From contig NZ_QGGI01000001.1 of assembly GCF_003148465.1 (NCBI RefSeq), forward strand, positions 95,170 to 159,169: 64,000 nucleotides of DNA. Direction: 5' to 3'. The translations under genes and the position numbers were made by a program. Under the pieces are notes generated by a model. The model ran no database searches. It worked only from the letters and a program-made list of their open reading frames with translations, and was not told where the DNA came from. The stretch comes from Oceanotoga teriensis. GTDB lineage: Bacteria; Thermotogota; Thermotogae; Petrotogales; Petrotogaceae. This document shows, piece after piece, positions 12,651 to 43,906 of this stretch; the stretch's first letter is position 1; the number at the start of each line of letters is the position of its first letter.

Positions 12651-12691
12651 TGTAAAATATAAGATGTAAAATGATTCTGGGGGTGTTTTCT

Positions 12692-14365: not shown

Positions 14366-14380
14366 AAGGAGTGCATTTTT

Positions 14381-14785: not shown

Positions 14786-15686
14786 TGATATAATCGAAAG
14801 TTTTAAAAATAAAAACAAATACGCTTTAGCTAAAATGATAACTTTAGTAGAAAATAATCCAGATGATGCTTGGAAAATAATTTCCAAACTTCCTAAAAAT
14901 AAATCTCCTCACATAATAGGAATAACAGGTTCTCCAGGAGCTGGAAAAAGTACTATGGTATCAAAACTGGTTGAAAAATACTCAGAAAAAAATCAAAAAA
15001 TCGGAATAATTGCAGTGGATCCAAGTAGTCCATTTACTGGCGGAGCATTTTTAGGTGATAGAATAAGAATGAGAACTTTAAATCCTGAAAATGTTTATAT
15101 AAGAAGTGTTGCTTCAAGGGGATCTGTTGGAGGATTATGTGACTCAATATTTGATATAGTAGATGTGATGAGTTCATATGGTTTTGATAAAATAATAATT
15201 GAAACTGTAGGAGCCGGCCAATCAGAAATAGAAGTTGTCTATGTTGCTGATACTATATTATTAGTCATGTCACCTGATTCTGGTGATGAAGTACAGATGT
15301 TTAAAGCTGGAATAATGGAAATAGCTGATTCATATATAGTAAACAAAATAGATCTCCAAAGTGCTAATAGATTTTTAACACAATTAAAAAACACATTAAA
15401 TCTTGAATACGAAGAAAAACATTTAAGAAAAATATTTGGTATAAGTGCAATAATGAATAAAGGATTAGATGAGGTAATTGATTGGATAGATAAACATAAA
15501 CAAAATTTATATAAAACAAATGAAATAGAAGATAGAATAAAAAGAAGAAAAGTTAGAAGAACAAGAAGTAACATAATAAGAAAACTTGATTATACAATAA
15601 AAGATTATAAAATAGAAGAAGAAAACTTATTTGAACTGAAAGATAATTTAATAAAAAAATTAACTGGAGGTAAATCAAATGACTAA
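14763..15686 (+). CDS. meaB: Methylmalonyl-CoA mutase-associated GTPase MeaB/ArgK
   Basis: 307 aa; [12 protein letters not shown]-loop [22 protein letters not shown]. The TTG start overlaps the preceding gene. Confidence 0.8.
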
Positions 15687-16077
15687 AATAGATCATATAG
15701 GTATTGCTGTAAATTCAATCGAAGAAGCATTACCTTTATATAAAAATTTGTTAAAAATAGAACCTTCTGGAGAAGAAATATTAGAAGATAGAGGATTGAA
15801 AGTAGTTTTTTTAGAGATAGGAGATACAAGAATTGAATTATTACAACCTATATCAGATAATTCAGAAGTTTCAAAATTTTTAGAAAAAAGAGGAAATGGA
15901 TTTCATCATATAGCTTATAAAGTTGAAGATGTTTCAAAAGCTATAGAAGAAGCCAAAAATATGGGTTTTAAGCCTCTATCCGATGTTCCTAAAGATGGGG
16001 CACATAATACATTAGTTGCTTTTCTACATCCTAAATCTGCAAACGGGATTTTAACAGAACTTGTCCAACACAAATAG
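15679..16077 (+). CDS. Methylmalonyl-CoA epimerase (glyoxalase/VOC family)
   Basis: 132 aa; IDHIGIAVNSIEEALPLY...GFHHIAYKVEDV, a VOC-fold epimerase; overlaps meaB by 8 nt. Confidence 0.75.
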   Translation: MTKIDHIGIAVNSIEEALPLYKNLLKIEPSGEEILEDRGLKVVFLEIGDTRIELLQPISDNSEVSKFLEKRGNGFHHIAYKVEDVSKAIEEAKNMGFKPLSDVPKDGAHNTLVAFLHPKSANGILTELVQHK

Positions 16078-16090
16078 GGAGGTCATTAAA

Positions 16091-17644
16091 ATGGCTGATG
16101 AGCAGTTAAAAAATATTCTCGGAGAGTTTCATGAAAAAAAAGATAAACTCTCACTTGGTGGCGGTAAAGATAAAATTGAAAAACAACATGAAAAAAATAA
16201 ATTAACCGCAAGAGAAAGATTAAATCTATTTTTAGATGAAAATTCTTTTGAAGAAATTGACAAATTTGTAAAACACAGAAGTACTTATTTTGGATTAGAT
16301 AAAAAAGAATTTCCATATGATGGAGTTGTAACCGGTTTTGGAACTGTAAATGGTAAAAGAGTTGCCGTTTTTTCTCAAGACTTTACAGTACAAGGTGGAT
16401 CATTGGGAGAAATGCATGCAAAAAAAATAATGAAAGTCCAAGATATGGCGTTAAAATTTGGAGTACCTATAATAGGAGTAAATGATTCAGGTGGAGCAAG
16501 AATTCAAGAAGCAATAGATGCTTTATACGGTTATGGTGGAATTTTCTATAGAAATACTATTTCTTCAGGAGTAATACCACAAATCACTGTTATTGCTGGT
16601 CCATGTGCTGGTGGTGCAGTTTATTCTCCTGCTATAACTGATTTTATAATAATGGTAGATAAAAGTTCTCAAATGTTTATAACTGGTCCTCAAGTAATAA
16701 AGGCTGTAACTGGCGAAAATGTAGATAAAGAAAGTTTAGGAGGAGCAAAAGTTCATAATTCAATAAGCGGAGTTGCTCATCTAATAGCAAAAAATGATGA
16801 AGAAGCCATGAATTTGACAAAAAAACTTCTTTCTTATATACCTGCTAATAATTTAGACCCTGTAGAAAATATTGAATATAAAGAAAAAGAAATATCAGAT
16901 AAAATATATGAATTAGTGTCTCCGAACCCAAAAAAATCTTATGATGTTAGAGATGTTTTAAATGAAGTTTTTGACGAAAAATCATTTTTTGAAATACAAC
17001 CCCATTTTGCAAAAAATATGGTAATTGGGTTTGCAAGATTGGAAGGCCAATCAATAGGTATAATAGCAAATCAGCCAAAAGTTCTTGCTGGTGCATTAGA
17101 TATAAATGCTTCAGATAAAGCTGCAAGATTCATTAGATTTTGTGATGCTTTTAATATTCCAATAATAACATTTGTTGATACACCTGGATTCTTGCCAGGA
17201 GTGAATCAAGAACATGGTGGAATAATAAGACATGGTGCAAAATTATTATATGCATACTCTGAAGCATCTGTACCAAAATTATCTATAATACTAAGAAAAT
17301 CTTATGGAGGAGCATATATAGCAATGTCTTCTCAGCATTTAGGAGCTGATTTTGTTTATGCTTGGCCAACAGCTGAAATTGCTGTTATGGGACCAGAAGG
17401 TGCTGCAAATATTATATTTGCAAAAGATATAAAAAATTCAGAAACTCCTGAAATAACAAGAAAAGAAAAAATAGATGAATATAAAAATAGATTTGCAAAC
17501 CCTTATGAAGCAGCTGCCAGAGGATACATCGAAGATGTAATAGATCCAAAAGAAACAAGATACAAATTATCCTACGCACTTAATTTCGCTTCAACTAAAG
17601 CTGAATCTAAGCCTAACAAAAAACATGGAAATATTCCATTATAA
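16091..17644 (+). CDS. Methylmalonyl-CoA decarboxylase alpha subunit / propionyl-CoA carboxylase beta chain (carboxyltransferase)
   Basis: GGGAGG then ATG 16091 (MADEQLKN); the track ORF starts at 16061. Two carboxyltransferase halves (GGARIQEA...PQITVIAGPCAGGAVYSPA and ...TPGFLPG...ILRKSYGGAYIAM). Confidence 0.85.
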   Translation: MADEQLKNILGEFHEKKDKLSLGGGKDKIEKQHEKNKLTARERLNLFLDENSFEEIDKFVKHRSTYFGLDKKEFPYDGVVTGFGTVNGKRVAVFSQDFTVQGGSLGEMHAKKIMKVQDMALKFGVPIIGVNDSGGARIQEAIDALYGYGGIFYRNTISSGVIPQITVIAGPCAGGAVYSPAITDFIIMVDKSSQMFITGPQVIKAVTGENVDKESLGGAKVHNSISGVAHLIAKNDEEAMNLTKKLLSYIPANNLDPVENIEYKEKEISDKIYELVSPNPKKSYDVRDVLNEVFDEKSFFEIQPHFAKNMVIGFARLEGQSIGIIANQPKVLAGALDINASDKAARFIRFCDAFNIPIITFVDTPGFLPGVNQEHGGIIRHGAKLLYAYSEASVPKLSIILRKSYGGAYIAMSSQHLGADFVYAWPTAEIAVMGPEGAANIIFAKDIKNSETPEITRKEKIDEYKNRFANPYEAAARGYIEDVIDPKETRYKLSYALNFASTKAESKPNKKHGNIPL

Positions 17645-17659
17645 TGGAGGCGAATATAA

Positions 17660-18025
17660 ATGAGTGATGTTGCTTTAATAACTCTAACAGGAATTTTTAC
17701 GGTTTTTATTGTATTATTGATATTAATGATAGTTTTCATAATATTTGGAAAAGTATCTACAAAAAATACAAAAAAAGATCTTAAAAAATTAAATAAAATA
17801 TCTCCTAAAGAAACTATTTCTAAAGAAACAAAAGATTTTGCAGAAAACAAAGAAGATGATTTAGAAGAAATTGCTGCAATAAGTGCTGCAATTTCGTATT
17901 TTATGGGTAACAAAAAATATAAAATCAGAAGTATAGAAAAAGAAAATGAAATAAAAATCAAACAATCAAAACCTGCAAGATGGGGTTCTGTTCAACCAGT
18001 ACAAATATGGAGAACAAATAGATAA
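17660..18025 (+). CDS. OadG-like small membrane subunit (methylmalonyl-CoA/oxaloacetate decarboxylase gamma/delta-type)
   Basis: 121 aa; an N-terminal single TM (LITLTGIFTVFIVLLILMIVFIIFGKV) then a Lys/Glu-rich linker; lies between the carboxyltransferase and the biotin carrier, as in Na+-pumping decarboxylase operons. Confidence 0.5.
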   Translation: MSDVALITLTGIFTVFIVLLILMIVFIIFGKVSTKNTKKDLKKLNKISPKETISKETKDFAENKEDDLEEIAAISAAISYFMGNKKYKIRSIEKENEIKIKQSKPARWGSVQPVQIWRTNR

Positions 18026-18042
18026 TTTGGAGGGGTAGGAAA

Positions 18043-18453
18043 ATGATTAAAAATTTTAAAGTTAAAGTAAATGGTAAATCATATGATGTAGAAGTAGAAG
18101 AATTAAATAATGAAATAATAGAAAATAAAACCCAACAAAATATTGATATAAAACCTCAAGAAAAAAATCTAGAAAAAACAATCGCAAAAAAAGAAGTAAC
18201 AGAACCAAAAAAAGAAGAAAAAATCGTTGAAAAATCTTCTGGAGAAGAAATTTTAGCTCCACTTCCAGGAGTAATATTAGATATATTAGTAAATGAAGGT
18301 CAACAAATAAATAAAGGTGATAAATTATTAGTAATAGAAGCTATGAAAATGGAAAATGATATACAATCTGAATATTCAGGAATAATTGATAAAATACTTG
18401 TTAAAAAAGGTGATTCAGTCGATGGAGATCAACCAGTAATAATATTAAAATAA
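18043..18453 (+). CDS. Biotin carboxyl carrier protein (biotinyl domain subunit)
   Basis: 136 aa; the C-terminal biotinyl domain has the EAMKMEN biotinylation motif and a PV..IL tail. Confidence 0.8.
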   Translation: MIKNFKVKVNGKSYDVEVEELNNEIIENKTQQNIDIKPQEKNLEKTIAKKEVTEPKKEEKIVEKSSGEEILAPLPGVILDILVNEGQQINKGDKLLVIEAMKMENDIQSEYSGIIDKILVKKGDSVDGDQPVIILK

Positions 18454-19150: not shown

Positions 19151-19360
19151 CTATTCTATTTCAGAAAAATCAAAAACTTCTTCAATTGATAATCCAAAAT
19201 ATTTTGATATCTTATATGCAAGAATCAAAGAAGCGGTATATTTTTCAGTTTCAATAGAAGTTATCGTTTGTCTTGTAGTGCCTACTTCCAATGCCAAGTC
19301 TTCCTGAGATAATTTGTTCTTTTTCCTTAATTCTCTAATTTTATTTTTCAAAAAAATCAC
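19151..19360 (-). CDS. XRE-family (Cro/C1-type HTH) transcriptional regulator
   Basis: 69 aa; LSQEDLALEVGTTRQTITSIETEKYTASLILAYKISKYFGLSIEEVF is a canonical HTH_3 domain. Confidence 0.75.
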   Translation of the reverse strand: MIFLKNKIRELRKKNKLSQEDLALEVGTTRQTITSIETEKYTASLILAYKISKYFGLSIEEVFDFSEIE

Positions 19361-19368
19361 CTACTAAT

Positions 19369-19435
19369 TTTGCAAAGTTAACTTTACATTTTTAGTTTAG
19401 CATACTTTGCATTTTTTGTCAAGCTAACTTTGCAA
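19369..19435. promoter_or_regulatory. Palindromic operator (three TGCAAAGT half-sites) overlapping the divergent XRE promoter
   Basis: TTGCAAAGTTAAC at 19370-19382, its inverted copy GCTAACTTTGCAA at 19423-19435, and a third half-site (revcomp TGCAAAGTATG) at 19401-19411. A minus-strand TTGACA-17-TAAACT promoter is embedded between them. Confidence 0.45.
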
Positions 19436-19465
19436 AAAATAAAATATAAAATATTTAAATCAAAT

Positions 19466-19494
19466 TTGACAAATAAAAATAATTATGTTATTAT
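19466..19494 (+). promoter_or_regulatory. Putative sigma-70 promoter of the riboswitch-led methionine operon
   Basis: TTGACA (19466-19471), 17 nt, TATTAT (19489-19494), about 18 nt upstream of the riboswitch aptamer. Confidence 0.4.
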
Positions 19495-19511
19495 TTTATC
19501 AAATTAAATAG

Positions 19512-19615
19512 TACTTATCCAGAGAAGAGTAGGGAATCGGCCCGTTGATACTTCAGCAACCTGCAATTGCGTTGGTGCTAAATCCGACATTTCTATTTGA
19601 AATGAAAGATAAGAT
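19512..19615 (+). promoter_or_regulatory. SAM-I (S-box) riboswitch aptamer
   Basis: acTTATCCAGAGaagAGtAGGGAatCGGCCCgtTGAtaCttcaGCAACCtgcaattgcgttGGTGCTAAAtCCgac...AGATAAGat matches the S-box consensus (CTTATCaAGAG..GGAGGGAcTGGCCC.TGA..CC..GCAACC...GGTGCTAAttCC...AGATAAG). Confidence 0.8.
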
Positions 19616-19625
19616 AAAATATTTA

Positions 19626-19663
19626 TTCCTCTTTCAAACAATAGAAAGAGGAATTCTTTTTTT
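19626..19663 (+). terminator. Riboswitch expression-platform terminator
   Basis: TTCCTCTTTC-aaacaatag-GAAAGAGGAA followed by TTCTTTTTTT, directly 3' of the S-box aptamer. Confidence 0.6.
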
Positions 19664-19803
19664 AAGAGGTGATTAAAATAAATTGTGATATGAGTGATAT
19701 GTATAATATGAAAATTAATAATTCAATAAAATCAAATAAACATAAAAAAGTTTTGATTATTGGCATAACATAAAAATGCCTAAAAAGTTTGCTATAGATT
19801 TTT

Positions 19804-19842
19804 TAGTCAGTTATGCCAATGCATAACTGACTTTTTTATTTG
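19804..19842 (+). terminator. Second terminator-like hairpin immediately before the aspartokinase RBS
   Basis: Perfect 11-bp stem AGTCAGTTATG-ccaatg-CATAACTGACT followed by TTTTTT, ending a few nt before GGAGGTG and the TTG start at 19855; possibly an attenuator. Confidence 0.35.
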
Positions 19843-19854
19843 GAGGTGTAATCT

Positions 19855-21063
19855 TTGAATATAATAGTTCAAAAATTTGGTGGAACATCTATGGCAAACA
19901 AAGAATCTATAAAATTAGTTGTAAAAAAAATAACACAAGAGTTAACAAAAAACAAAAAAGTAATAACAATTGTATCAGCACCATCTGGTATTACTAATTA
20001 TCTTCAAAAATTAATAGAAGAAATGAGTCCTAATCCAAGTAACAAAGAGTTAGACTTGATTTTATCTTTAGGAGAAAATATTTCTATTTCTGTTTTATCT
20101 TCTATATTGAAAAATAATGATATTAAATCTTCATTTGTAAACCCTAGAGATATAGATCTTATCACAGATAATAATTTTAATAATGCAAAGATTAAAAGAA
20201 TCGATATAAACAAAATATATGATCTTTTAAGACTTTATGATGTACTAATAATACCTGGATTTCAAGGAATATCAGAAAAATTTGAAGTGATCACACTTGG
20301 TAGAGGTGGTTCTGATATTACAGCAATAGCTATAGCTGCTGCTTTATCTTTAGAATACGTAGATATCTATACTGATGTGGATTATGTATATTCTTGTGAT
20401 CCAAAATTAGTTAAAAATCCTATAAAAAACAAATCATTATCTTATGAAGAAATGATTGAATTATCTTCATCTGGAGCAAAAGTGTTACATAATAGATGTG
20501 TAGAAATAGCCCATAAATATGATTTAAAAATTAATTTAAAAAATACATTCTCAAATAAAACTGGAACTATCATTCATGATAATATAGAAAAATCTTTTAT
20601 CAGTGGTATTTCTTTATTAGAAGATAATTTTATTATTAATTTTGAAATAACCAATTTAAAAGATCTTTCAGATTTTTTTAAAATACTATCTGAAAATAAA
20701 ATAAACATAAATATAGTATCTCAATCACTAAAAAACATATCTATTTCAATTAATAATAAGTATTACGAAAAGACAATTTCATTATTAAATACTATAAAAT
20801 CCAATATTAATATATTAAATATTAATATTTATAAAAATTTATCAAAAATTTCTATTGTCGGAGATGGAATAAAAGACAATTATGGAATAATAAGTAAAAT
20901 AATTAATACATTAAATCAAAATAAAATAAATATAAATATGATTTCTTGTTCTGAAATAAATATTTCTTTATTAATTGATAAAAAAAACATTTGTAAAGCT
21001 ATAAATTTGCTACATTATGAATTAATAGAATCTGATCTCAAAAAACAGGAGGAAATAATATGA
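19855..21063 (+). CDS. Aspartate kinase (with C-terminal ACT domains)
   Basis: 402 aa, TTG start; VQKFGGTSMA, the amino-acid-kinase fold, and a C-terminal ACT pair (ISIVGDGIKDNYGIISKII...). Confidence 0.85.
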   Translation: MNIIVQKFGGTSMANKESIKLVVKKITQELTKNKKVITIVSAPSGITNYLQKLIEEMSPNPSNKELDLILSLGENISISVLSSILKNNDIKSSFVNPRDIDLITDNNFNNAKIKRIDINKIYDLLRLYDVLIIPGFQGISEKFEVITLGRGGSDITAIAIAAALSLEYVDIYTDVDYVYSCDPKLVKNPIKNKSLSYEEMIELSSSGAKVLHNRCVEIAHKYDLKINLKNTFSNKTGTIIHDNIEKSFISGISLLEDNFIINFEITNLKDLSDFFKILSENKININIVSQSLKNISISINNKYYEKTISLLNTIKSNINILNINIYKNLSKISIVGDGIKDNYGIISKIINTLNQNKININMISCSEINISLLIDKKNICKAINLLHYELIESDLKKQEEII

Positions 21064-22193
21064 GAACATTTGATGAAATAAATAATAAAATAAAAAATGG
21101 TGAAGCTGTAGTATTAACAGCTATCGAAGTAAAAAATTTAATTGAAAAAGAAAGTATAGATAAAGTTTTTGAAAAAGTTGATGTTGTAACAACAGCTACA
21201 TTTGGACCTATGTGTTCATCGGGAGCATTTTTAAATTTTGGTCATGCAAATCCTCCCATTAGAATGGAAAAAACCTTTATAAACAATGTAGAATCTTATT
21301 CTGGTATTGCAGCTGTAGATACTTATATAGGAGTTACACAAGAATCTAAAGTTAATAATAATTATGGAGGAGCTCATGTAATTTATGATTTAATATGTGG
21401 AAAAGAAGTAGAAATAATAGCAAGTGGAAAAGGTACCGATTGTTATCCCAGAAAATATATTAAAAGAAAACTAAAACTATCCGATTTAAATGAAGCTTAT
21501 TTATTCAATCCAAGAAATGTATATCAAAATTATAATGCCGCAATAAATACATCTAATAAAAAACTTCATACATATATGGGAATACTTTTTGAAAATTCAG
21601 AAAATATAAATTTTTGTACTTCAGGAGAAATAAGTCCTCTATTGAATGATCCAACTTATCAAACAATAGGTATTGGAACTTCAATATTTCTTGCAGGAGC
21701 TACAGGAATGATAGTTCATGAAGGAACTCAATTTAATTCTGATATAAAAAGAGATGAAAATAAATTACCTGTAGCACCCGCTGCAACACTTGCTGTTATC
21801 GGAGATTTAAAAGACATGGATAAAGAATATATAAAACCTGCAATTCTTAAAGGTTATGGCATTTCTATGTTTATTGGTATTGGTATACCTATTCCAGTAT
21901 TAAATAAAGATATATTAAAAAGCTTAGCTATTAGAAATAAAGATATTTACACTAATATTTTAGATTATTCAAAAGAAAACAAACCAACAATTAAAAGAGT
22001 TAATTATGATCAATTAAGATCTGGAAAAGTGGAAATAAATGGGAAAATAATTAAAACATCATCAATTTCAAGTTTATATAAATCAGAAAAAATTTGCATA
22101 AAATTAAAAGAAAAAATTTTAAATAAAGAATTTTATTTAACTAAACCTATAAGAAAATTTAATAATACGAAAGTTAAAGAAATGAAAAAATGA
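21060..22193 (+). CDS. DUF39/COG1900 family protein (homocysteine biosynthesis, aspartate-semialdehyde sulfurtransferase-like)
   Basis: 377 aa; the N-terminal ~330 aa resemble the COG1900 catalytic domain (…VVTTATFGPMCSSGAFLNFGHANPPIRM…YIGVTQES…) described for the MA1821-type homocysteine pathway. No CBS pair is seen. Confidence 0.55.
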   Translation: MRTFDEINNKIKNGEAVVLTAIEVKNLIEKESIDKVFEKVDVVTTATFGPMCSSGAFLNFGHANPPIRMEKTFINNVESYSGIAAVDTYIGVTQESKVNNNYGGAHVIYDLICGKEVEIIASGKGTDCYPRKYIKRKLKLSDLNEAYLFNPRNVYQNYNAAINTSNKKLHTYMGILFENSENINFCTSGEISPLLNDPTYQTIGIGTSIFLAGATGMIVHEGTQFNSDIKRDENKLPVAPAATLAVIGDLKDMDKEYIKPAILKGYGISMFIGIGIPIPVLNKDILKSLAIRNKDIYTNILDYSKENKPTIKRVNYDQLRSGKVEINGKIIKTSSISSLYKSEKICIKLKEKILNKEFYLTKPIRKFNNTKVKEMKK

Positions 22194-22202
22194 GGTGGAT
22201 TT

Positions 22203-22916
22203 ATGTATGAAAAAAGAAATTATAGGAATATAATGAAACCTAAAAATTTAATAAATTATAATATATGCGTAGAAGAATCAGATTTGAATATATCCTCAAA
22301 AATTAATTTGAGTAAATTATTGCTAATTCAATTAAAATACATAAGAAATATAATAAAAATGCATTGTATTTATAATTCTTCATTTTTAAAATCCCATACC
22401 CCCATAAATAATGATTATTCATATAATATAATAATTCAAAAAATGATCATAGCTTCTTCAAAAGTAAATGTTGGGCCTATGGCAAGTATAGCTGGTTGTA
22501 TTTCAGAATATATTGGAAAAATAGCTTTATTATTTACAGATGAAATAATTATAGAAAATGGTGGAGATATTTTCTTAAAAACTTTAATAGATAGAAAGAT
22601 TAAAATTTATGCTGGAAAATCTCCTTTATCCAATAAATTATCAATATTAATATCAAAAAATTCTGAACTTGGAATTTGTACTTCTGCAGGAACTTTTGGT
22701 CATTCTTATAGCTATGGAAAAGCTGATGCAGTAGTAATAATATCTAAAGATACATTACTTGCTGACAGTTTAGCAACATCAGCAGCCAATAAAATAAAAT
22801 CAAAGAATGATATAAAAAATGTATTAAATTATATAAATAGTATAGATAATATAAATGGGGGAATAATAATAAAAGATGATAAAGTTGGTGCAATAGGTAA
22901 TATAAACATCTGTTAA
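22203..22916 (+). CDS. UPF0280/COG2122-like (ApbE-like superfamily) protein
   Basis: 237 aa; GPMASIAGCISEYIGK...ENGGDIFL; this family is recurrently linked with COG1900 genes in anaerobe sulfur-amino-acid loci. A tentative call. Confidence 0.35.
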   Translation: MYEKRNYRNIMKPKNLINYNICVEESDLNISSKINLSKLLLIQLKYIRNIIKMHCIYNSSFLKSHTPINNDYSYNIIIQKMIIASSKVNVGPMASIAGCISEYIGKIALLFTDEIIIENGGDIFLKTLIDRKIKIYAGKSPLSNKLSILISKNSELGICTSAGTFGHSYSYGKADAVVIISKDTLLADSLATSAANKIKSKNDIKNVLNYINSIDNINGGIIIKDDKVGAIGNINIC

Positions 22917-22950
22917 ATAAAATTAAAAGTAATTTTCAGGAGTTGATAAT

Positions 22951-23832
22951 ATGTTTATTAAAGATAAATTTATAAATAAAAAACCTATAATTTCATTTGA
23001 AATATTTCCACCTAAAAAAACTGGGTCTATTAAAAAGATTTATAAAACTATAGAAGAATTAGCCGTATTAACTCCAGATTATATAAGCGTAACTTATGGA
23101 GCTGGAGGATCTGAACATGATAAAACTACAGAAATTGCTTCAATAATAAAAAATAAATACAATATTGAATCACTTGCTCATTTAACTTGCATAAATTCTA
23201 ACAAAAAAGATATTTATAATACTTTAAACAATTTAGAAAATGAAAACATAGAAAATATTTTAGCTTTAAAAGGTGATATTCATCCAGATTATAAATTGAA
23301 AAAAGATTTTAATCATGCTTCTGATTTAATAGAATATATAAAAGAAAATTTTAATTTTTGTATAGGTTCTGCAGTTTATCCAGAAGGACATTTAGAAGCA
23401 TTAAATAAAAGCATGGATTTATTTTATACACAAGAAAAAATCAATAAAGGTACTGATTTTCTAATAAGTCAGTTATTTTTTAAAAATAAAATTTTTTATG
23501 AATATCAAGAAAAACTAAAAAACAGAAATATAAAAGTCCCACTTCAGGCTGGTATTATGCCAGTTGTAAATAAAAAACAAGTAGAAAAAATAGTATCATT
23601 ATGTGGAACTTATATGCCAGAAAAATTTATAAAAGTTATGAATAAATATGAAAATAATAAAGAAGCTTTATTAGATGCAGGAGTAACTTATGCTTGTGAT
23701 CAAATAATTGATTTATTATCTTCTGATGTGGATGGAATACATTTGTATGTAATGAATAACCCTATTACTGCAAGAAAAATAGTAGAAAGAATTAAAAATA
23801 TTTTAAAATATTTAGGTGAAAATAATGGATAA
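22951..23832 (+). CDS. metF: 5,10-methylenetetrahydrofolate reductase
   Basis: 293 aa; ISFEIFPPK...VTYGAGGS...TCIN...LALKGD, MTHFR signatures. Confidence 0.85.
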   Translation: MFIKDKFINKKPIISFEIFPPKKTGSIKKIYKTIEELAVLTPDYISVTYGAGGSEHDKTTEIASIIKNKYNIESLAHLTCINSNKKDIYNTLNNLENENIENILALKGDIHPDYKLKKDFNHASDLIEYIKENFNFCIGSAVYPEGHLEALNKSMDLFYTQEKINKGTDFLISQLFFKNKIFYEYQEKLKNRNIKVPLQAGIMPVVNKKQVEKIVSLCGTYMPEKFIKVMNKYENNKEALLDAGVTYACDQIIDLLSSDVDGIHLYVMNNPITARKIVERIKNILKYLGENNG

Positions 23833-24397
23833 AAAAGAGATATTAAGATATTTAAACTATAAAAATCAAATTTTAGATGAAAAAACAAAAATATATTTAA
23901 ATGAATCTATTGAAGAAGTTGAAAAATATTCTAATATTAGATATACATATAAAATTTATAAACTAAAATCAATTTCTGAAGAAATTATTCAATTAGAAAA
24001 CTCTAAAATTCAGCTTAAAGGAAAAAGCATAAACAAATTATTAATTAATTGCAACAAAGTGATAATATTTGCAGCAACTTTAGGAATTAATATAGATAAA
24101 AAAATAAAATACTTAGAAAAAATTAATTTAGCAAAAGGTATTATATTCAATACAACTTCATCAGTATACATTGATGAAATATGTGATGAAATTGAAAAAG
24201 AATTAAAATTAAAATACAAATCTCATATCTTTACAAAAAGATATTCACCTGGATATGGAGATTTAAAATTAAATATTCAATATGATATATTAGAAGAATT
24301 AAATGCAAGTAAAAGTTGTGGAATATACACAGATGAATATAATAATTTAATTCCAATAAAAACGATAACAGCCTTAATAGGTATTAAAAAAATTTAA
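23816..24397 (+). CDS. Stand-alone methionine synthase reactivation (AdoMet-binding activation) domain protein
   Basis: 193 aa; its size and position directly upstream of a MetH that lacks this domain match the split arrangement known from Thermotoga. Confidence 0.6.
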   Translation: MKIMDKKEILRYLNYKNQILDEKTKIYLNESIEEVEKYSNIRYTYKIYKLKSISEEIIQLENSKIQLKGKSINKLLINCNKVIIFAATLGINIDKKIKYLEKINLAKGIIFNTTSSVYIDEICDEIEKELKLKYKSHIFTKRYSPGYGDLKLNIQYDILEELNASKSCGIYTDEYNNLIPIKTITALIGIKKI

Positions 24398-24427
24398 AAA
24401 TATTGAATTATTGTTTGGAGGTATAAT

Positions 24428-26773
24428 ATGAATTTAAGTAATTTACTTAATAAAAAATTTATTCTTTTTGATGGGGCTATGGGAAGCATGATTCAAAAAG
24501 AAAACATCAATACATTGCCTGAACTATTAAATTTAGAAAATCCTCATTTAATAAGATCTATACACAAAAAATATATTGAAGCTGGTGCAGATATTATAAC
24601 AACAAATACATTTGGTGCAAATAATCATAAATTAAAAAAATATAATGTAGATTCAGATTTAATAATCAAAAATGCAATTGAAATAGCAAAGTCAGTTCAA
24701 AAAAATAATTTAATAGCTCTCGATATAGGTCCCATAGGTAGAATGATAGAACCTATGGGAAAAATGACTTTTGATGAAAGTTATGAATTTTTTAAAAAAC
24801 AGGTTATAGCGGGCGAAAAATATGGAGCTGATTTAATATTATTTGAAACATTTTCAGATATATACGAATTAAAATCTGGAATACTCTCAGCTAAAGAGAA
24901 CACAAAATTACCGATATTTGCTACAATGACTTTTTCTGATGATAAAAGAACATTTACTGGAACAGATATTAAAACAATGATATCTGTTCTTGAAGGACTT
25001 AATGTTAACGCACTTGGTATAAACTGTTCTCTTGGTCCAGATAAAATGGAGTCATTAGTAGATAAATTAGTAAAATATTCATCTACGCCAATAATAGTTC
25101 AAGCAAATGCAGGACTCCCAGATTACCAAAATGGAAATACAATATATAATATTAACTCAAATGAATATAATGAACATACAAAAAAATTAATGAATAAAGG
25201 TATTCAAATTATAGGAGGATGTTGTGGAACAACCGATGAATATATAAGAAAATTAAATAATTCTAGAAAACAAATTCCATTTAAACCTGTATTCGATAAA
25301 AACTATTCATTCATATCTTCTTATTCAAAAACATATGATGTTAGCAAAAATATTCATATAATAGGAGAAAGAATCAATCCAACTGGAAAGAAAAAATTAA
25401 GACAAGCCATAATAGAAGAAAATATGGAATATATAACTAATCTTGCATTAAAGCAAAAAGAAGAAGGAGCAGAAATACTAGATGTAAATATGGGTGTTCC
25501 AAAAATAGATGAAAATAAATTAATGATAAAATCTATAAAAGAAATCCAAAAATTAATTGATATTCCACTTCAAATAGATTCAACAAATATAGAGGTTATA
25601 GATAATGGTTTAAGATATTATAATGGTAAAGCTATAATAAATTCTGTAAATGGTAAAAAAAATTCTATGGAAGAAATATTCCCTGTAATAAAAAAATATG
25701 GAGCTATGGTTATTTGCCTTACTTTAAATGAAGATGGAATACCTGAAACAATGGAAAAAAGGTTACAAATTGCTAAAAACATAGAAAACACAGCATTGAA
25801 ATATGGAATATCAAAAAAAGATTTAATATTTGATTTTTTAGTATTGGCAGTATCAGCTCAACAAAACGAACTATACAATACATTGTCCACTTTATCTTAT
25901 GTCAAAAACACATATAATTATAATACAACTTTAGGTGTAAGTAATGTATCTTTTGGTCTTCCAAATAGAAAAATATTAAATAGAACATTTTTAGCCATGG
26001 CTTTGCAAGCTGGATTAAACTTACCAATAATAAACACATCATCACAAGATATGATAGATACAATAAATTCTTACAAAGTACTTGCAAATATAGATAAAGA
26101 TTGCAAAAAATATATAAGTATTTACTCCGAACAAAAAGAAGAAGAAATAAAAAATGAAACATTGGAATACTGTATAGAAAATGGATTAAAAGAAAAAACA
26201 AAAATTATAACTATCGAAAAATTAAAAAATACAGATCCTCTTGAAATAATAAATAATATATTAATCCCAACGTTGAATAAAGTTGGTGATAAATATGAAA
26301 AAGAAATAATATTCTTACCTCAATTAATACAATCGGCAGAAACTGCAAAAATAGTATTTAAAGAAATAAAAAATAAATTACCTGATTTAGATTCATCAAA
26401 TAAAAAAGATAAAATAATACTTGCTACTGTTGAAGGAGATATACATGATATAGGAAAAAATATAGTAAAAGTAATACTTGAAAATTATGGTTATGAAATA
26501 ATAGATTTAGGTAAAGATGTCGTTTGTAATAAAATAATAGATAAAATTCAAGATTCTAAGGCTAAAATAGTGGGACTTTCAGCCTTAATGACTACAACTC
26601 TTATAAATATGGAAAATACTGTAAAAGAAATAAGAAAAAAATTTGATGATATAAAAATAATAATTGGTGGAGCAGTAGTTACAAAAACATTTGCAAATTC
26701 AATAGGTGCTGATTTTTATGCAAAAGATGCAAGAGAGGCTTTAAAATATTTAGAAAAATTACCTTTAAATTAA
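24428..26773 (+). CDS. metH: Cobalamin-dependent methionine synthase (Hcy-MT + pterin-binding + B12-binding; no activation domain)
   Basis: 781 aa; the Hcy-binding barrel (GGCCGTT), a pterin-binding domain, and a B12 module with EGDIHDIGKNIV and GLSALMTTT. Confidence 0.9.
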   Translation: MNLSNLLNKKFILFDGAMGSMIQKENINTLPELLNLENPHLIRSIHKKYIEAGADIITTNTFGANNHKLKKYNVDSDLIIKNAIEIAKSVQKNNLIALDIGPIGRMIEPMGKMTFDESYEFFKKQVIAGEKYGADLILFETFSDIYELKSGILSAKENTKLPIFATMTFSDDKRTFTGTDIKTMISVLEGLNVNALGINCSLGPDKMESLVDKLVKYSSTPIIVQANAGLPDYQNGNTIYNINSNEYNEHTKKLMNKGIQIIGGCCGTTDEYIRKLNNSRKQIPFKPVFDKNYSFISSYSKTYDVSKNIHIIGERINPTGKKKLRQAIIEENMEYITNLALKQKEEGAEILDVNMGVPKIDENKLMIKSIKEIQKLIDIPLQIDSTNIEVIDNGLRYYNGKAIINSVNGKKNSMEEIFPVIKKYGAMVICLTLNEDGIPETMEKRLQIAKNIENTALKYGISKKDLIFDFLVLAVSAQQNELYNTLSTLSYVKNTYNYNTTLGVSNVSFGLPNRKILNRTFLAMALQAGLNLPIINTSSQDMIDTINSYKVLANIDKDCKKYISIYSEQKEEEIKNETLEYCIENGLKEKTKIITIEKLKNTDPLEIINNILIPTLNKVGDKYEKEIIFLPQLIQSAETAKIVFKEIKNKLPDLDSSNKKDKIILATVEGDIHDIGKNIVKVILENYGYEIIDLGKDVVCNKIIDKIQDSKAKIVGLSALMTTTLINMENTVKEIRKKFDDIKIIIGGAVVTKTFANSIGADFYAKDAREALKYLEKLPLN

Positions 26774-26827
26774 TAGTTGATTGAATTAAAAAGTTATACT
26801 ATAAAAATGCAAAGTGATTAATTATAA

Positions 26828-27340
26828 TTAATCACTTTCTTTCTTCATAGTGTTGAAAAAACTCAAAAGAAGACCTAAAACAAAACTCCAAACCGCTGCA
26901 AGAGTTATTTGCCAATTATTTGGTAACATAAAAGTTATTGTATGCGCCGGTAACCAAAACCATAATAAAGCCCAAAATGCTTTTTTCAAACCTTCTTTAG
27001 AAATTTTTAACTTTAAATTATATAAATTTTCTAAAAATCTGTGTATTACAACCATAACAGGTCCAAACATAGAATTCATAAACAATGATTTAAAAAAGGC
27101 TTTCCAAAAATCTCCCGATGGAAGATATCCATAAGATACAAGTTCATTTACAAATCCATTAAACCCTACAAAAACAAATTTTATAATTATACCAAGAACC
27201 CCCCATACAATAGCAGAATATACAGTTTTTAAAACTATAATTTTCTTTTTAGATAGTTTTAAAGCTACTATCTCTCCAAGAGTTCCTAAAATTGCAAATT
27301 GTATAAATGCCATAAAAAAAATACTTTTAAAAAAAGTCAT
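26828..27340 (-). CDS. Hypothetical integral membrane protein
   Basis: 170 aa, 4-5 TM helices; overlaps the stop of the channel gene by 4 nt (probably co-transcribed). Confidence 0.4.
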   Translation of the reverse strand: MTFFKSIFFMAFIQFAILGTLGEIVALKLSKKKIIVLKTVYSAIVWGVLGIIIKFVFVGFNGFVNELVSYGYLPSGDFWKAFFKSLFMNSMFGPVMVVIHRFLENLYNLKLKISKEGLKKAFWALLWFWLPAHTITFMLPNNWQITLAAVWSFVLGLLLSFFNTMKKESD

Positions 27341-30260: not shown

Positions 30261-31091
30261 TTGGAATTCATTATAAAATCAAAAGCATTATATACTACTT
30301 GGGTACTCTATAAACCAGATAGAATATTATTTGATGTTGGAGAAGGAATAAGCTCTTCACTTGGAAATAAAATATATGCAATAGAGAATATATTTTTAAC
30401 ACATTCTCATATAGATCATATATCTGGATTATGGGGATTCATAAATACAAGAAACAATGCTATGGGTTCGAGAGAAAAGCCTTTAAATATATATTATCCT
30501 GAAAACTCCGAACAAATAGTCAAGTATATAAGCTTTATAAAAAATATGAATAATAGATTAAGATATTCTTTAAATTTTATTCCAATAAATCTAAAATCTG
30601 TTATAGAAATATCAGAAACAAGATATATTAAACCATTTAAAACCCGTCATACTCCATCTGAATTAACTTTTGGATATCAAATCTTTGAAAAAAGAAAAAG
30701 ATTAAAAGACGAATATAAATATTTAGATCAAAATAGTATAATAGAATTGAGTAAAAAAATAGGGAAAGACAATATATCACAAAGATATGATGCAAATATT
30801 TTGACAATAAGCGGTGATTCTTTGCCAATACCTTTAGAATATGCTGAAAACTGTGAAATTTTATTACATGAATGTACCTTTTTTAAAGAAGAAGACCGTA
30901 AAATACGAAACCATACTTCATTAGAGGAATTAAAAATACTAATCAAAAATATAAATGCAAAAAAAATAATAATATACCATGTTTCAAGTAGATATAATTC
31001 AATAATAAAATCTACTGAAGAAAAATTAAAAAAAGAGTTTTCAGATAAAGAAATTTACATTGTTCATCCTGAAAGGAAATTAAAACTCTAA
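30261..31091 (+). CDS. MBL-fold metallo-hydrolase, ribonuclease Z-like
   Basis: 276 aa; ILFDVGEG...IFLTHSHIDHISGL (the HxHxDH motif) and a C-terminal LHECTF...IIYHVSSRY resembling the RNase Z/ElaC short form. Confidence 0.5.
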   Translation: MEFIIKSKALYTTWVLYKPDRILFDVGEGISSSLGNKIYAIENIFLTHSHIDHISGLWGFINTRNNAMGSREKPLNIYYPENSEQIVKYISFIKNMNNRLRYSLNFIPINLKSVIEISETRYIKPFKTRHTPSELTFGYQIFEKRKRLKDEYKYLDQNSIIELSKKIGKDNISQRYDANILTISGDSLPIPLEYAENCEILLHECTFFKEEDRKIRNHTSLEELKILIKNINAKKIIIYHVSSRYNSIIKSTEEKLKKEFSDKEIYIVHPERKLKL

Positions 31092-39797: not shown

Positions 39798-39806
39798 ATA
39801 ATCACC

Positions 39807-40397: not shown

Positions 40398-40399
40398 AG

Positions 40400-43900: not shown

Positions 43901-43906
43901 GTAAAA

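What the first reader, a model, noticed from the sequence alone, without database searches (positions are those of the whole stretch)
19466..26773. SAM-I riboswitch controlling a six-gene methionine operon that uses the aspartate-semialdehyde + sulfide (COG1900/DUF39) route to homocysteine
A well-conserved S-box aptamer with its own terminator precedes aspartokinase, a DUF39/COG1900 protein, a COG2122-like protein, metF, a stand-alone MetH activation domain and metH. COG1900/COG2122 proteins were described as the homocysteine-forming system of methanogens and some anaerobic bacteria. No metA/metX, metB, metC or metY is in the operon, so this locus would make methionine from aspartate via direct sulfide addition to aspartate semialdehyde, gated by SAM. 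The split MetH (core plus separate reactivation domain) matches the arrangement known in Thermotoga.
Basis: partly seen in the sequence, partly recalled or inferred. Interest (0 to 1): 0.55.

Follow-up and report, generated by a model that had tools for sequence, protein, structure and literature searches.

The report
SAM-gated methionine operon with second attenuator

Summary
A full-length SAM-I (S-box) aptamer lies at 19512-19615 (81 bits, cut-off 44), with a promoter-like site, a terminator and an antiterminator. Six co-directional genes follow: aspartokinase, a DUF39/COG1900 (PF01837) protein, a COG2122/UPF0280 protein, MetF, a TM0269-type MetH reactivation protein, and a MetH core without an activation domain.

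The DUF39 protein is 100% identical to one from Oceanotoga teriensis (Petrotogaceae, Thermotogota), so the Thermotoga-like split MetH is expected. The DUF39 route is published. At least 23 of 86 related DUF39 loci carry a SAM-I aptamer just upstream. The main finding is therefore a new member of a known kind.

- The operon lacks the NIL/ferredoxin partner that most relatives encode between DUF39 and COG2122. That partner is genetically required in Methanosarcina and Desulfovibrio.
- asd is not in the 64-kb window.
- A second strong terminator (19805-19838) lies directly before the aspartokinase ribosome-binding site. It has a competing antiterminator, a conserved GGCAUAAC...AUGCC hairpin and a small Met-containing ORF. 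Tepiditoga spiralis shares this element, and no Rfam family matches it. One relative has a second S-box in the same slot.

What the second element senses is unknown. A Met-codon leader-peptide attenuator is my leading guess.

The parts
19466..19494 (+). Sigma-70-type promoter-like site (TTGACA, 17 nt, TATTAT, with TG extension)
   Evidence: Best-scoring site in the region, 11 of 12 matches. Promoter-like sites in total are no more frequent than in shuffles, so the assignment rests on its position about 20 nt upstream of the aptamer.
19512..19615 (+). SAM-I (S-box) riboswitch aptamer
   Evidence: RF00162, 81.2 bits against a gathering score of 44.4, E=1.4e-17, model positions 1-108 of 108.
19625..19663 (+). 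Riboswitch expression platform: terminator 1 (11-bp stem at 19625-19654, then a U-run). The P1 3' strand GAAAGAU can instead pair with UCUUUC of the terminator's 5' arm, forming an antiterminator.
   Evidence: Terminator scan. Folding gives -14.5 kcal/mol for the hairpin and shows the antiterminator pairing when the 3' arm is left out.
19664..19773 (+). Start of the second leader: an SD-like AAGAGGUGA (19664-19672) and a 27-codon sORF (ATG 19690 to TAA 19771-19773) encoding MSDMYNMKINNSIKSNKHKKVLIIGIT
   Evidence: Sequence and translation. Tepiditoga has GGAGG, 8 nt, ATG and a 31-codon sORF with NMNMWMC at the same place. In Oceanotoga the SD-to-ATG spacing is 17 nt, which is long.
19762..19780 (+). 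Hairpin H1, GGCAU(AACAUAAAA)AUGCC, a candidate anti-antiterminator. The strand 19758-19770 (UAUUGGCAUAACA) is complementary to 19809-19820 in the 5' arm and loop of terminator 2.
   Evidence: GGCATAAC N(3-20) ATGCC occurs once in the window, with 0 expected. It occurs at the same leader position in Tepiditoga L009. The antiterminator duplex is -15.5 kcal/mol, reached by 4 of 2000 shuffles. In Tepiditoga it is -15.4 kcal/mol, reached by 0 of 2000.
19805..19838 (+). Terminator 2: a 12-bp stem, a 4-nt loop and U6, ending 3 nt before the aspartokinase SD (GGAGGUG, 19842-19848)
   Evidence: Terminator scan. The hairpin folds at -16.6 kcal/mol. The Tepiditoga counterpart differs by three compensatory pair changes.
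19855..21063 (+). Aspartokinase (monofunctional, two ACT domains), TTG start
   Evidence: PF00696 plus ACT_9/ACT_7. NF005155 scores 362 bits against a cut-off of 346.
21060..22193 (+). DUF39/COG1900a protein, the putative L-aspartate-semialdehyde sulfurtransferase catalytic subunit, with no CBS or ferredoxin domain
   Evidence: PF01837 HcyBio, 469 bits, profile positions 1-349 of 349. C52 and C128 are invariant in 26 homologues. The protein is 100% identical to an Oceanotoga teriensis protein.
22203..22916 (+). COG2122/UPF0280 (ApbE-like) protein
   Evidence: NF003323 scores 219 bits, below the equivalog cut-off of 271. PF27030 AbpE_bact is precomputed for the identical gene. The local Pfam copy gives no hit. 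A homologue lies next to DUF39 in most related loci.
22951..23832 (+). MetF, methylenetetrahydrofolate reductase
   Evidence: PF02219, 251 bits. TIGR00676 scores 304 bits against a cut-off of 294.
23825..24397 (+). Stand-alone MetH reactivation (AdoMet-binding) protein of the TM0269 type. It is 190 aa from the ATG, or 193 aa from the GTG at 23816.
   Evidence: PDB 1j6r at E=7e-11. A profile of 7 orthologues hits 1j6r at E=4.5e-20. The motif RxSPGYGD is invariant. Orthologues in L009 and L090 pass PF02965, but this protein itself does not hit it.
24428..26773 (+). MetH core (homocysteine-binding, methyl-THF-binding, B12-cap and B12-binding modules), lacking the activation module
   Evidence: PF02574, PF00809, PF02607 and PF02310. 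TIGR02082 is matched over positions 1-854 of 1182.
26811..26838 (.). AT-rich hairpin (AAAGTGATTAAT TATA ATTAATCACTTT) between the convergent metH and the next gene, the likely operon end
   Evidence: Sequence. The scan did not report it because it has fewer than 3 G-C pairs.

Best explanation
This is the methionine biosynthesis operon of Oceanotoga teriensis.

Transcription starts just downstream of the promoter-like site at 19466-19494. A SAM-I riboswitch then decides whether RNA polymerase stops. With SAM bound, helix P1 closes, terminator 1 (19625-19663) forms and transcription ends. Without SAM, the 3' strand of P1 pairs with the terminator's 5' arm and the polymerase reads on.

The polymerase then meets a second checkpoint that is not a SAM-I aptamer. 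Terminator 2 (19805-19838) competes with an antiterminator formed between 19758-19770 and 19809-19820. The small conserved hairpin H1 partly sequesters the antiterminator strand. I think this second checkpoint is regulated (about 0.65). Its most likely input is translation of the Met-containing sORF, as in classical ribosome-mediated attenuation (about 0.35). In that model a ribosome that reaches the sORF stop codon covers the antiterminator strand and allows termination. A ribosome stalled earlier, or one that opens the leader, frees the strand.

Transcripts that pass both terminators encode six proteins:
- Aspartokinase commits aspartate to the pathway.
- The DUF39/COG1900a enzyme, with its COG2122 helper, converts aspartate semialdehyde plus a reduced sulfur donor into homocysteine. 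Homoserine is not an intermediate.
- MetF makes 5-methyl-THF.
- The MetH core methylates homocysteine.
- A separate TM0269-type protein reactivates oxidised cob(II)alamin with AdoMet.

Asd and the electron donor must be encoded elsewhere.

Shown here: the RNA and protein family assignments, the two terminator/antiterminator architectures, and their conservation in relatives. Inferred: ligand response, enzyme activities, operon boundaries and the input of the second element.

The confidence of 0.8 applies to the riboswitch-plus-DUF39-pathway reading. The input of the second element is much less certain.
For: - Riboswitch: RF00162 at 81.2 bits over the full model, a terminator and an antiterminator alternative.
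- Proteins: Pfam and NCBIfam assignments, a PDB 1j6r match, and the conserved catalytic-region cysteines C52 and C128, which correspond to MA1821 Cys54 and Cys131 (PMC12068725).
- Pathway: genetics and biochemistry of DUF39, NIL/ferredoxin and COG2122 are published for methanogens and Desulfovibrio (PMC5764234, PMC4045070, PMC12068725).
- Aspartate semialdehyde as branch point: the closest relative, L007 (70% identical DUF39), has asd inserted between the aspartokinase gene and DUF39. AK or asd also sits in or next to several other DUF39 clusters.
- SAM control is recurrent: my CM or Rfam finds a SAM-I aptamer directly upstream of DUF39 or its operon in at least 23 of 86 related loci.
- Second checkpoint in the window: terminator 2 at -16.6 kcal/mol and an antiterminator at -15.5 kcal/mol, reached by 4 of 2000 shuffles.
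- Second checkpoint in Tepiditoga spiralis: the same layout, with SD, sORF, a GGCAUAAC..AUGCC hairpin and a terminator just before the AK SD. The terminator sequence differs, and the antiterminator matches that species' own terminator at -15.4 kcal/mol, reached by 0 of 2000 shuffles. Three compensatory pair changes separate the two terminator stems.
- In L090, which has the same gene order, a second complete S-box with its own terminator fills the slot. Two serial regulated terminators are therefore a recurring design for this operon.
Against: - No experiment supports any step in this organism.
- asd is missing from the window.
- The NIL/ferredoxin gene is absent from the operon and the window. 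Most relatives have it between DUF39 and COG2122, so the DUF39 step may need an unidentified partner.
- The COG2122 protein scores below the NCBIfam equivalog cut-off.
- The 190-aa protein does not itself reach PF02965.
- The second element has only two independent examples, Oceanotoga and Tepiditoga. The leader is identical in all five Oceanotoga contigs.
- The Oceanotoga sORF has a poor SD-to-AUG spacing of 17 nt.
- Met enrichment in the sORFs is weak: P about 0.08 in Oceanotoga and about 0.016 in Tepiditoga.
- In Tepiditoga the sORF stop codon lies about 33 nt beyond the antiterminator strand, so a terminating ribosome would not mask it.
- L007 lacks the second element altogether.
Confidence: 0.8

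Rival explanations
1. The second hairpin (19805-19838) is not a sensor. It is a constitutive, leaky terminator that lowers basal expression, or a relic of a rearrangement, and the sORF is fortuitous. SAM would then be the only signal.
For: The nearest relative, L007, works with the S-box alone. The Oceanotoga sORF has a poor SD spacing and only marginal Met enrichment. The sORF's C-terminal KKVLIIGIT faintly resembles the N-terminus of L007 Asd (MKKYNVGIIGSKG), as a gene-fragment relic might.
Against: A relic or a simple terminator would not keep a 10-12-bp antiterminator that matches each species' own diverged terminator. It would also not keep the identical TGGCATAAC...ATGCC words between genera whose AK proteins are only 45% identical.
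Confidence: 0.2
2. The second element is a protein-dependent attenuator of the PyrR/TRAP type. An RNA-binding regulator recognises the conserved hairpin H1 (GGCAUAAC...AUGCC) when an effector is abundant, for example methionine, lysine or threonine. It stabilises H1 as an anti-antiterminator and lets terminator 2 form. Translation of the sORF is irrelevant.
For: Sequence, not only pairing, is conserved in H1: 9 plus 5 identical bases in otherwise unalignable leaders. That pattern is typical of a protein- or ligand-contact site. The sORF geometry is inconsistent between the two species. The first gene is aspartokinase, a step commonly under multi-effector control.
Against: No candidate RNA-binding protein is encoded next to the operon. 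H1 is only 5 bp in Oceanotoga. Both species have an SD-like sequence and an ATG directly after terminator 1.
Confidence: 0.25
3. The DUF39 protein does not make homocysteine here. It performs another aldehyde-to-thiol conversion, as its paralogue MMP16 does for coenzyme M, and homocysteine comes from a classical pathway elsewhere in the genome.
For: The COG1900 family contains enzymes with other substrates (PMC12068725). The NIL/ferredoxin partner and asd are missing from this locus. The rest of the genome could not be inspected.
Against: The gene is translationally coupled to aspartokinase (a 4-nt overlap). It sits with metF and metH behind a SAM riboswitch. It fails the MMP16 model, with 142 bits against a cut-off of 364, and keeps the two L-ASST cysteines. 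Its closest relative has asd directly upstream.
Confidence: 0.05

Closest known systems
L-aspartate semialdehyde sulfurtransferase system of Methanosarcina acetivorans (MA1821 DUF39+CBS, MA1822 NIL/ferredoxin, MA1715 COG2122) and of Desulfovibrio vulgaris Miyazaki (DvMF_1464, DvMF_0262, DvMF_0044)
   Same: It has a full-length PF01837 domain with both conserved cysteines and an adjacent COG2122 gene. No homoserine-activating or sulfhydrylase genes are in the cluster (PMC5764234, PMC12068725).
   Different: There is no CBS domain on the DUF39 protein. There is no NIL/ferredoxin gene in the operon or the 64-kb window, whereas most bacterial relatives have one between the two genes. Feedback is at the RNA level through the riboswitch, rather than by the SAM/Met-binding CBS and NIL domains.
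Thermotoga maritima split methionine synthase TM0268 (MetH core) and TM0269 (reactivation protein, PDB 1j6r)
   Same: It has an MetH core of about 780 aa without the activation module. A small adjacent protein matches 1j6r and carries the RxxPGY AdoMet motif. The source organism is in the same phylum.
   Different: The small gene lies upstream of metH here. It is too diverged to reach PF02965 on its own. It lacks the Cys-rich tail seen in the Tepiditoga and L090 orthologues.
S-box (SAM-I) regulon of Firmicutes, i.e. transcription-terminating SAM riboswitches before met genes
   Same: The aptamer, terminator and antiterminator logic are the same. The same riboswitch stands before DUF39 operons in many metagenomic relatives.
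   Different: The host is a Thermotogota species. The riboswitch terminator is followed by a second, unrelated terminator switch.
Tandem riboswitch architectures, such as the SAM plus AdoCbl riboswitches before Bacillus clausii metE (from my own knowledge), and the tandem S-boxes seen here in L090 and L010
   Same: Two complete terminator units lie in series in one leader, so either can veto expression.
   Different: The second unit matches no Rfam family, even at E up to 10. It contains an sORF rather than a recognisable aptamer.
Leader-peptide attenuators (trp and his operons) and the polycysteine sORF attenuators of mycobacteria (bioRxiv 10.1101/834739)
   Same: An sORF lies upstream of an amino-acid biosynthesis operon and carries codons for the pathway's product. 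Mutually exclusive RNA pairings decide downstream expression.
   Different: There are few regulatory codons: three Met, one of them the start. The geometry is not conserved between the two species. No methionine-responsive leader peptide is known to me, and none turned up in searches of the held literature.

Membership tests
SAM-I riboswitch (Rfam RF00162) | Covariance-model score at or above the curated gathering score over the whole four-helix aptamer | tested here: met
   81.2 bits against 44.4, model positions 1-108 of 108, E=1.4e-17.
SAM-I riboswitch (Rfam RF00162) | Expression platform in which the 3' strand of P1 alternates between P1 and an antiterminator that competes with an intrinsic terminator | tested here: met
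   Terminator at 19625-19654 plus a U-run. Folding without the terminator's 3' arm pairs GAAAGAU of P1 with UCUUUC of the terminator's 5' arm.
SAM-I riboswitch (Rfam RF00162) | Binds S-adenosylmethionine and terminates transcription in response | not testable with these tools
   Needs in-line probing or in vitro transcription.
COG1900a / L-aspartate semialdehyde sulfurtransferase (PF01837 HcyBio) | Full-length PF01837 domain | tested here: met
   469 bits, profile positions 1-349 of 349.
COG1900a / L-aspartate semialdehyde sulfurtransferase (PF01837 HcyBio) | The two cysteines conserved in L-ASST homologues (MA1821 Cys54, essential, and Cys131) | tested here: met
   C52 (PMCSSGAF) and C128 (GTDCYPR) are invariant in 26 aligned homologues. 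The correspondence to Cys54 and Cys131 is by position and by the statement in PMC12068725, not by a direct alignment to MA1821.
COG1900a / L-aspartate semialdehyde sulfurtransferase (PF01837 HcyBio) | Not the MMP16/ComF (COG1900d) subtype, which has a ferredoxin insert | tested here: met
   TIGR03287 scores 141.8 bits against a cut-off of 363.95. No CxxCxxCxxxC motif is present.
COG1900a / L-aspartate semialdehyde sulfurtransferase (PF01837 HcyBio) | Partner NIL/ferredoxin or ferredoxin subunit (MA1822, DvMF_0262) encoded next to or fused with the DUF39 gene | tested here: not met
   DUF39 ends at 22193 and COG2122 starts at 22203. No ferredoxin motif or NIL homologue is in the operon. The only 4Fe-4S hit in the window is the tail of an oxoacid:ferredoxin oxidoreductase. 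Most relatives have such a gene there. The rest of the genome was not searched.
COG1900a / L-aspartate semialdehyde sulfurtransferase (PF01837 HcyBio) | Converts aspartate semialdehyde plus a sulfur donor into homocysteine | not testable with these tools
   Inferred from context: aspartokinase is translationally coupled upstream, asd is in the L007 operon, and metF and metH lie downstream.
COG2122 / UPF0280 (ApbE-like, PF27030) | Family HMM hit and conserved adjacency to DUF39 | tested here: inconclusive
   NF003323 scores 219 bits, E=5e-65, but below its equivalog cut-off of 271. PF27030 is on record for the identical gene but is not in the local Pfam copy. Homologues lie downstream of DUF39 in most of the 86 loci.
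Split MetH of the Thermotoga type (TM0268 + TM0269) | MetH with the four N-terminal modules and no activation module | tested here: met
   PF02574, PF00809, PF02607 and PF02310 only. TIGR02082 is covered to position 854 of 1182.
Split MetH of the Thermotoga type (TM0268 + TM0269) | Adjacent small protein homologous to TM0269, the activation domain | tested here: met
   1j6r at E=7e-11 for the single sequence and E=4.5e-20 for the profile. RYSPGYGD motif.
Split MetH of the Thermotoga type (TM0268 + TM0269) | Direct membership of Pfam PF02965 (Met_synt_B12) | tested here: not met
   No hit for the window protein even at E up to 10. Positional orthologues in L009 and L090 pass at 36.8 and 33.5 bits against a cut-off of 25.
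Ribosome-mediated (leader-peptide) transcription attenuator, considered for the second element | Intrinsic terminator before the first gene plus a mutually exclusive antiterminator | tested here: met
   Terminator 2 at -16.6 kcal/mol and antiterminator at -15.5 kcal/mol, reached by 4 of 2000 shuffles. Tepiditoga has -19.1 and -15.4 kcal/mol, reached by 0 of 2000.
Ribosome-mediated (leader-peptide) transcription attenuator, considered for the second element | Translatable sORF with a ribosome-binding site, enriched in codons of the regulating amino acid | tested here: inconclusive
   Oceanotoga has an SD-to-AUG spacing of 17 nt and 3 Met in 27 codons (P about 0.08). Tepiditoga has GGAGG, 8 nt, AUG and 4 Met in 31 codons (P about 0.016).
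Ribosome-mediated (leader-peptide) transcription attenuator, considered for the second element | A ribosome at the sORF stop codon masks the antiterminator strand | tested here: inconclusive
   This holds in Oceanotoga, where the stop at 19771-19773 abuts the strand 19758-19770. It does not hold in Tepiditoga, where the stop lies about 33 nt downstream.
Any known riboswitch or leader family, considered for the second element | Rfam covariance-model match | tested here: not met
   A permissive cmscan of 19400-19900 (E up to 10) gives only SAM plus chance-level hits.

The most novel reading that the evidence does not exclude
The 190-nt segment between the SAM riboswitch and aspartokinase is a new kind of methionine sensor. 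It would be a Met-codon leader-peptide attenuator reading Met-tRNA charging and wired in series with the SAM riboswitch, so the operon needs both low SAM and low charged tRNA-Met.

A related device may recur in DUF39 operons of unrelated lineages. L057, L064 and L085 carry, right after the S-box terminator, a strong SD and an sORF starting MDMExDMxDxDMxM. Its five in-frame AUGs are invariant while the codons between them vary. L020, L025 and L027 carry a conserved sORF ending ...SNMCM(C). No methionine-responsive leader peptide is known to me.
Probability: 0.25. Interest if true: 0.65.

Novelty: new member of a known kind. Interest (0 to 1): 0.33.

Why it matters
It shows that the DUF39 route to homocysteine, under S-box control, also occurs in Petrotogaceae, and that NCBI already names close relatives (e.g. 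Fusibacter) 'homocysteine biosynthesis protein' while the identical O. teriensis protein is only 'uncharacterized protein (DUF39 family)'.

Two details could be useful.

First, a small clade (Oceanotoga, Tepiditoga, L007, L090) runs the DUF39 and COG2122 pair without the adjacent NIL/ferredoxin subunit that genetics found essential elsewhere. That makes it a natural test case for which electron donor the enzyme really needs.

Second, the leader holds an unclassified second terminator switch. If it responds to Met-tRNA or to another effector, it would be a two-input gate on methionine synthesis and possibly a new attenuator class.

Tried and rejected
- The genome-contig scan with the DUF39 protein returned one distant locus, L006 at 45% identity. 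It did not retrieve the source species, so genome-wide absence of metX, metY, asd or NIL-ferredoxin could not be tested.
- The five Oceanotoga contigs (L001-L005) have identical leaders, so they give no covariation.
- No known RNA family (T-box, L-box, other SAM classes, AdoCbl) matches the second element at E up to 10.
- The H1 pattern hit in L084 lies inside a coding region and is a chance match.
- MAFFT misaligned the two second leaders. A gapped global alignment anchors on TGGCATAAC, ATGCC and the terminators. A shared GC-containing 8-mer alone is not rare (13% of shuffles), so the case rests on position plus the antiterminator statistics.
- I did not build a CM of the second element, because it has only two members.
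- The idea that the sORF is a relic of the asd 5' end rests on a weak resemblance only.
- A ferredoxin-motif regex and tblastn with NIL-ferredoxin and ferredoxin proteins from relatives found nothing in the operon.
- Pfam gave no hit for the 190-aa and 237-aa proteins in the local copy.
- For the Met-rich sORFs of L057, L064 and L085, the CCUCC (IHPP) anti-SD can pair with either SD. A simple stalling model gives the wrong regulatory sign, so I could not derive a consistent mechanism.
- Literature searches found no described Met leader peptide and no paper linking S-box to DUF39 within the held library. Rauch et al. 2014/2017 and Allen et al. 2015 are not held and are cited only through PMC5764234 and PMC12068725.

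Full report
**Observation.** An Rfam scan of the whole window gives a single family above threshold. It is RF00162 (SAM-I) at 19512-19615 on the + strand, 81.2 bits against a gathering score of 44.4, covering the whole model. An 11-bp hairpin at 19625-19654 followed by a U-run is the riboswitch terminator. When the terminator's 3' arm is left out of the fold, the 3' strand of P1 (GAAAGAU) pairs with the terminator's 5' arm, which is the usual S-box antiterminator.

**Genes.** Six co-directional ORFs follow, overlapping or nearly abutting.
- Aspartokinase, 19855-21063, with a TTG start 6 nt after GGAGGUG. It hits PF00696 plus ACT domains and scores above the NF005155 cut-off.
- A 377-aa PF01837 HcyBio protein, 469 bits over the full profile.
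- A 237-aa protein that matches the PRK04334/UPF0280 models (NF003323, 219 bits, below the equivalog cut-off of 271). PF27030 AbpE_bact is on record for the identical gene.
- MetF, above the TIGR00676 cut-off.
- A 190/193-aa protein.
- A 781-aa MetH with the homocysteine, pterin, B12-cap and B12 modules but no activation module.

The small protein has no Pfam hit, even at E up to 10. It matches PDB 1j6r at E=7e-11. PDB 1j6r is labelled 'methionine synthase'; from my own knowledge it is the stand-alone activation protein TM0269 of Thermotoga maritima. A profile of seven positional orthologues matches 1j6r at E=4.5e-20. Those orthologues share an invariant RxSPGYGD motif. The Tepiditoga and L090 orthologues pass PF02965. 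An AT-rich hairpin at 26811-26838, between metH and the convergent next gene, probably ends the operon.

**Source.** The DUF39 protein is 100% identical to a protein named from Oceanotoga teriensis, a member of Petrotogaceae, Thermotogota. The same contig appears in several public assemblies. The 'Thermotoga-like' split MetH is therefore the lineage's normal state.

**Pathway.** The held literature establishes four points.
- DUF39/COG1900 proteins are required for homocysteine synthesis in Desulfovibrio alaskensis and D. vulgaris and in Methanosarcina acetivorans.
- A NIL/ferredoxin protein and COG2122 are also required.
- Homoserine is not an intermediate.
- The substrate is aspartate semialdehyde (PMC4045070, PMC5764234, PMC12068725).

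The window protein keeps the two cysteines described as nearly universal in this subfamily. C52 and C128 are invariant in 26 homologues and correspond to MA1821 Cys54 and Cys131. It fails the MMP16/coenzyme-M synthase model.

Context supports aspartate semialdehyde as the branch point. Aspartokinase is translationally coupled to the DUF39 gene. The closest relative, L007 (70% identity), has asd between them. AK or asd also lies in or next to DUF39 clusters in several metagenomic loci.

**How common is it?** I collected 86 related loci.
- COG2122 lies next to DUF39 in most of them.
- A SAM-I aptamer lies directly upstream in at least 23. This is a lower bound, because my search model was built from three sequences.
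- metF, metH and the small activation protein are often in the same cluster.

NCBI already names close relatives 'homocysteine biosynthesis protein'; the identical O. teriensis protein itself is only named 'uncharacterized protein (DUF39 family)'.

**Differences from the described systems.**
1. Most relatives encode a NIL/ferredoxin protein of about 135 aa, or a 2x[4Fe-4S] ferredoxin of about 60 aa, between DUF39 and COG2122. Oceanotoga, Tepiditoga, L007 and L090 do not. In the window only 9 nt separate the two genes.
2. No ferredoxin motif or NIL homologue occurs in the operon. The only 4Fe-4S hit in the window is the tail of an oxoacid:ferredoxin oxidoreductase. The electron donor is therefore unassigned.
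3. An Rnf/Nqr-like complex and oxoacid:ferredoxin oxidoreductase genes lie in the window, so reduced ferredoxin is plausibly available.
4. The DUF39 protein has no CBS domain. Feedback would act at the RNA level rather than by the SAM- and Met-binding CBS and NIL domains of the archaeal enzyme.
5. asd is not in the window. Pfam scans of ORFs of 110 aa or more outside the span annotated (30 kb onward only from 31105) showed no classical homocysteine genes. The rest of the genome could not be examined.

**The missed element: anatomy.** Between the riboswitch terminator and the aspartokinase start lie about 190 nt that contain a second strong terminator. It has a 12-bp stem, a 4-nt loop and U6, at 19805-19838 (-16.6 kcal/mol), and ends 3 nt before the aspartokinase SD. 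Upstream, UAUUGGCAUAACA (19758-19770) is complementary to the 5' arm and loop of this terminator. That duplex is -15.5 kcal/mol, reached by 4 of 2000 shuffles. Part of the strand is itself held in a small hairpin, H1: GGCAU-N9-AUGCC at 19762-19780. Directly after terminator 1 there is an SD-like AAGAGGUGA and a 27-codon ORF, MSDMYNMKINNSIKSNKHKKVLIIGIT, whose stop codon abuts the antiterminator strand.

**The missed element: conservation.** Tepiditoga spiralis has the same gene order, with 45-68% protein identity, and the same leader layout.
- S-box and terminator come first, then GGAGG, 8 nt, AUG.
- A 31-codon ORF follows, containing NMNMWMC.
- A hairpin built on the identical words TGGCATAAC and ATGCC comes next.
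- A terminator lies just before the AK SD.

Its terminator sequence differs from the Oceanotoga one by three compensatory pair changes. The upstream complementary strand matches that species' own terminator at -15.4 kcal/mol, reached by 0 of 2000 shuffles. The H1 pattern is unique in the window. No Rfam family matches the region, even permissively.

L007 lacks the element. L090, with the same gene order, has a second complete S-box and terminator in the same slot. L010 also has tandem S-boxes. Two serial regulated terminators are thus a recurring design for this operon, and in Oceanotoga and Tepiditoga the second one is of an unknown type.

**The missed element: mechanism.** I consider a regulated attenuator likely (about 0.65). 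A ribosome-mediated version is the leading sub-hypothesis (about 0.35). In Oceanotoga a ribosome at the sORF stop would mask the antiterminator strand, while one stalled earlier would leave it free. In Tepiditoga the Met codons lie on the 5' arm of H1.

The weaknesses are real:
- There are only two independent examples.
- The SD-to-AUG spacing is 17 nt in Oceanotoga.
- Met enrichment is marginal (P about 0.08 and 0.016).
- The Tepiditoga stop codon lies about 33 nt beyond the antiterminator strand.

The sequence-level conservation of H1 fits a protein-binding hairpin equally well (0.25). A constitutive terminator or relic remains possible (0.2).

**Related leads.**
- In L057, L064 and L085 the S-box terminator is followed by a strong SD and an sORF beginning MDME[SN]DM[GS][DE][AG]DM[GV]M. 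The five AUGs are invariant while the codons between them vary. Only 14 of 10,580 small ORFs in all loci reach this Met density. The sORF also holds a CCUCC tract that can pair with either its own SD or that of DUF39. I could not derive a mechanism with the right regulatory sign.
- L020, L025 and L027 share another conserved sORF ending ...SNMCM(C) right after the aptamer.
- A polycysteine sORF attenuator is described in mycobacteria (bioRxiv 10.1101/834739). I found no methionine counterpart in the held literature.

**Verdict.** The described feature is a new member of a known kind and of modest interest. The second attenuator is the only part that may be new.

Noticed in passing
window 19664-19854: A second terminator/antiterminator element with an sORF and a conserved GGCAUAAC..AUGCC hairpin lies between the SAM riboswitch and aspartokinase. 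Tepiditoga spiralis shares it (L009 6600-6790). No Rfam family matches it.
   Followed up: yes
L057 3340-3504; L064 4310-4459; L085 6797-6949 (degenerate in L053, about 1900-1960): A Met-rich sORF (MDMExDMxDxDMxM..., five invariant in-frame AUGs) with a strong SD lies between the S-box terminator and the DUF39 gene. It contains a CCUCC (IHPP) tract complementary to both its own SD and the DUF39 SD. It may be a methionine-responsive translational attenuator. The mechanism is unresolved.
   Followed up: partly
L020 6816-6881; L025 2044-2109; L027 1136-1216: A conserved sORF ending ...SNMCM(C) lies directly after the SAM-I aptamer (no aptamer was detected in L027), upstream of DUF39, in loci without SD sequences.
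   Followed up: partly
L090 4436-4538 and 4606-4708; L010 2846-2957 and 3025-3122: Tandem complete SAM-I riboswitches lie upstream of DUF39 operons. In L090 each has its own terminator. L090 has the same gene order as the window.
   Followed up: partly
window 22193-22203, compared with L010-L092: Oceanotoga, Tepiditoga, L007 and L090 lack the NIL/ferredoxin or small ferredoxin gene that most relatives carry between DUF39 and COG2122. The electron donor for this clade is unassigned.
   Followed up: partly
window 19363-19440: Repeated 21-nt units (TTTTGCAAAGTTAACTTTACA and TGTCAAGCTAACTTTGCAAAA, 90% complementary, plus direct copies) lie in the divergent intergenic region between a small XRE-type HTH gene (19151-19360, minus strand) and the met promoter. 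They look like operator sites and end about 25 nt upstream of the -35 hexamer.
   Followed up: partly
window 12671-18453: A methylmalonyl-CoA mutase (large and B12-binding subunits), MeaB, epimerase, carboxyltransferase, OadG-like and biotin-carrier cluster lies upstream. It is a second B12-dependent pathway next to the B12-dependent MetH. In L007 a cobalamin riboswitch and a BtuF-type ABC transporter lie just upstream of the met operon.
   Followed up: no
window 30261-31091: An MBL-fold protein has a precomputed hit to PF23023 (Anti-Pycsar Apyc1) in a chromosomal context after rpsF-ssb-rpsR-rplI.
   Followed up: no
window 38679-46437: A gene set resembling an Rnf or Nqr complex (Rnf-Nqr subunits, an FMN-binding protein, an RnfD/NqrB-family protein, and a Fer2/FAD/NAD protein) lies here with oxoacid:ferredoxin oxidoreductase genes. 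This indicates a ferredoxin-based redox economy that could supply the DUF39 step.
   Followed up: no
L009 about 11330-11401; L090 about 9350-9425: The TM0269-type reactivation proteins of Tepiditoga and L090 carry a C-terminal Cys-rich tail (CDGCKLNCSF.. and CDRCNAKCEF..) that is absent from the Oceanotoga and L007 proteins. It may be a metal or Fe-S site for the reductive step.
   Followed up: no
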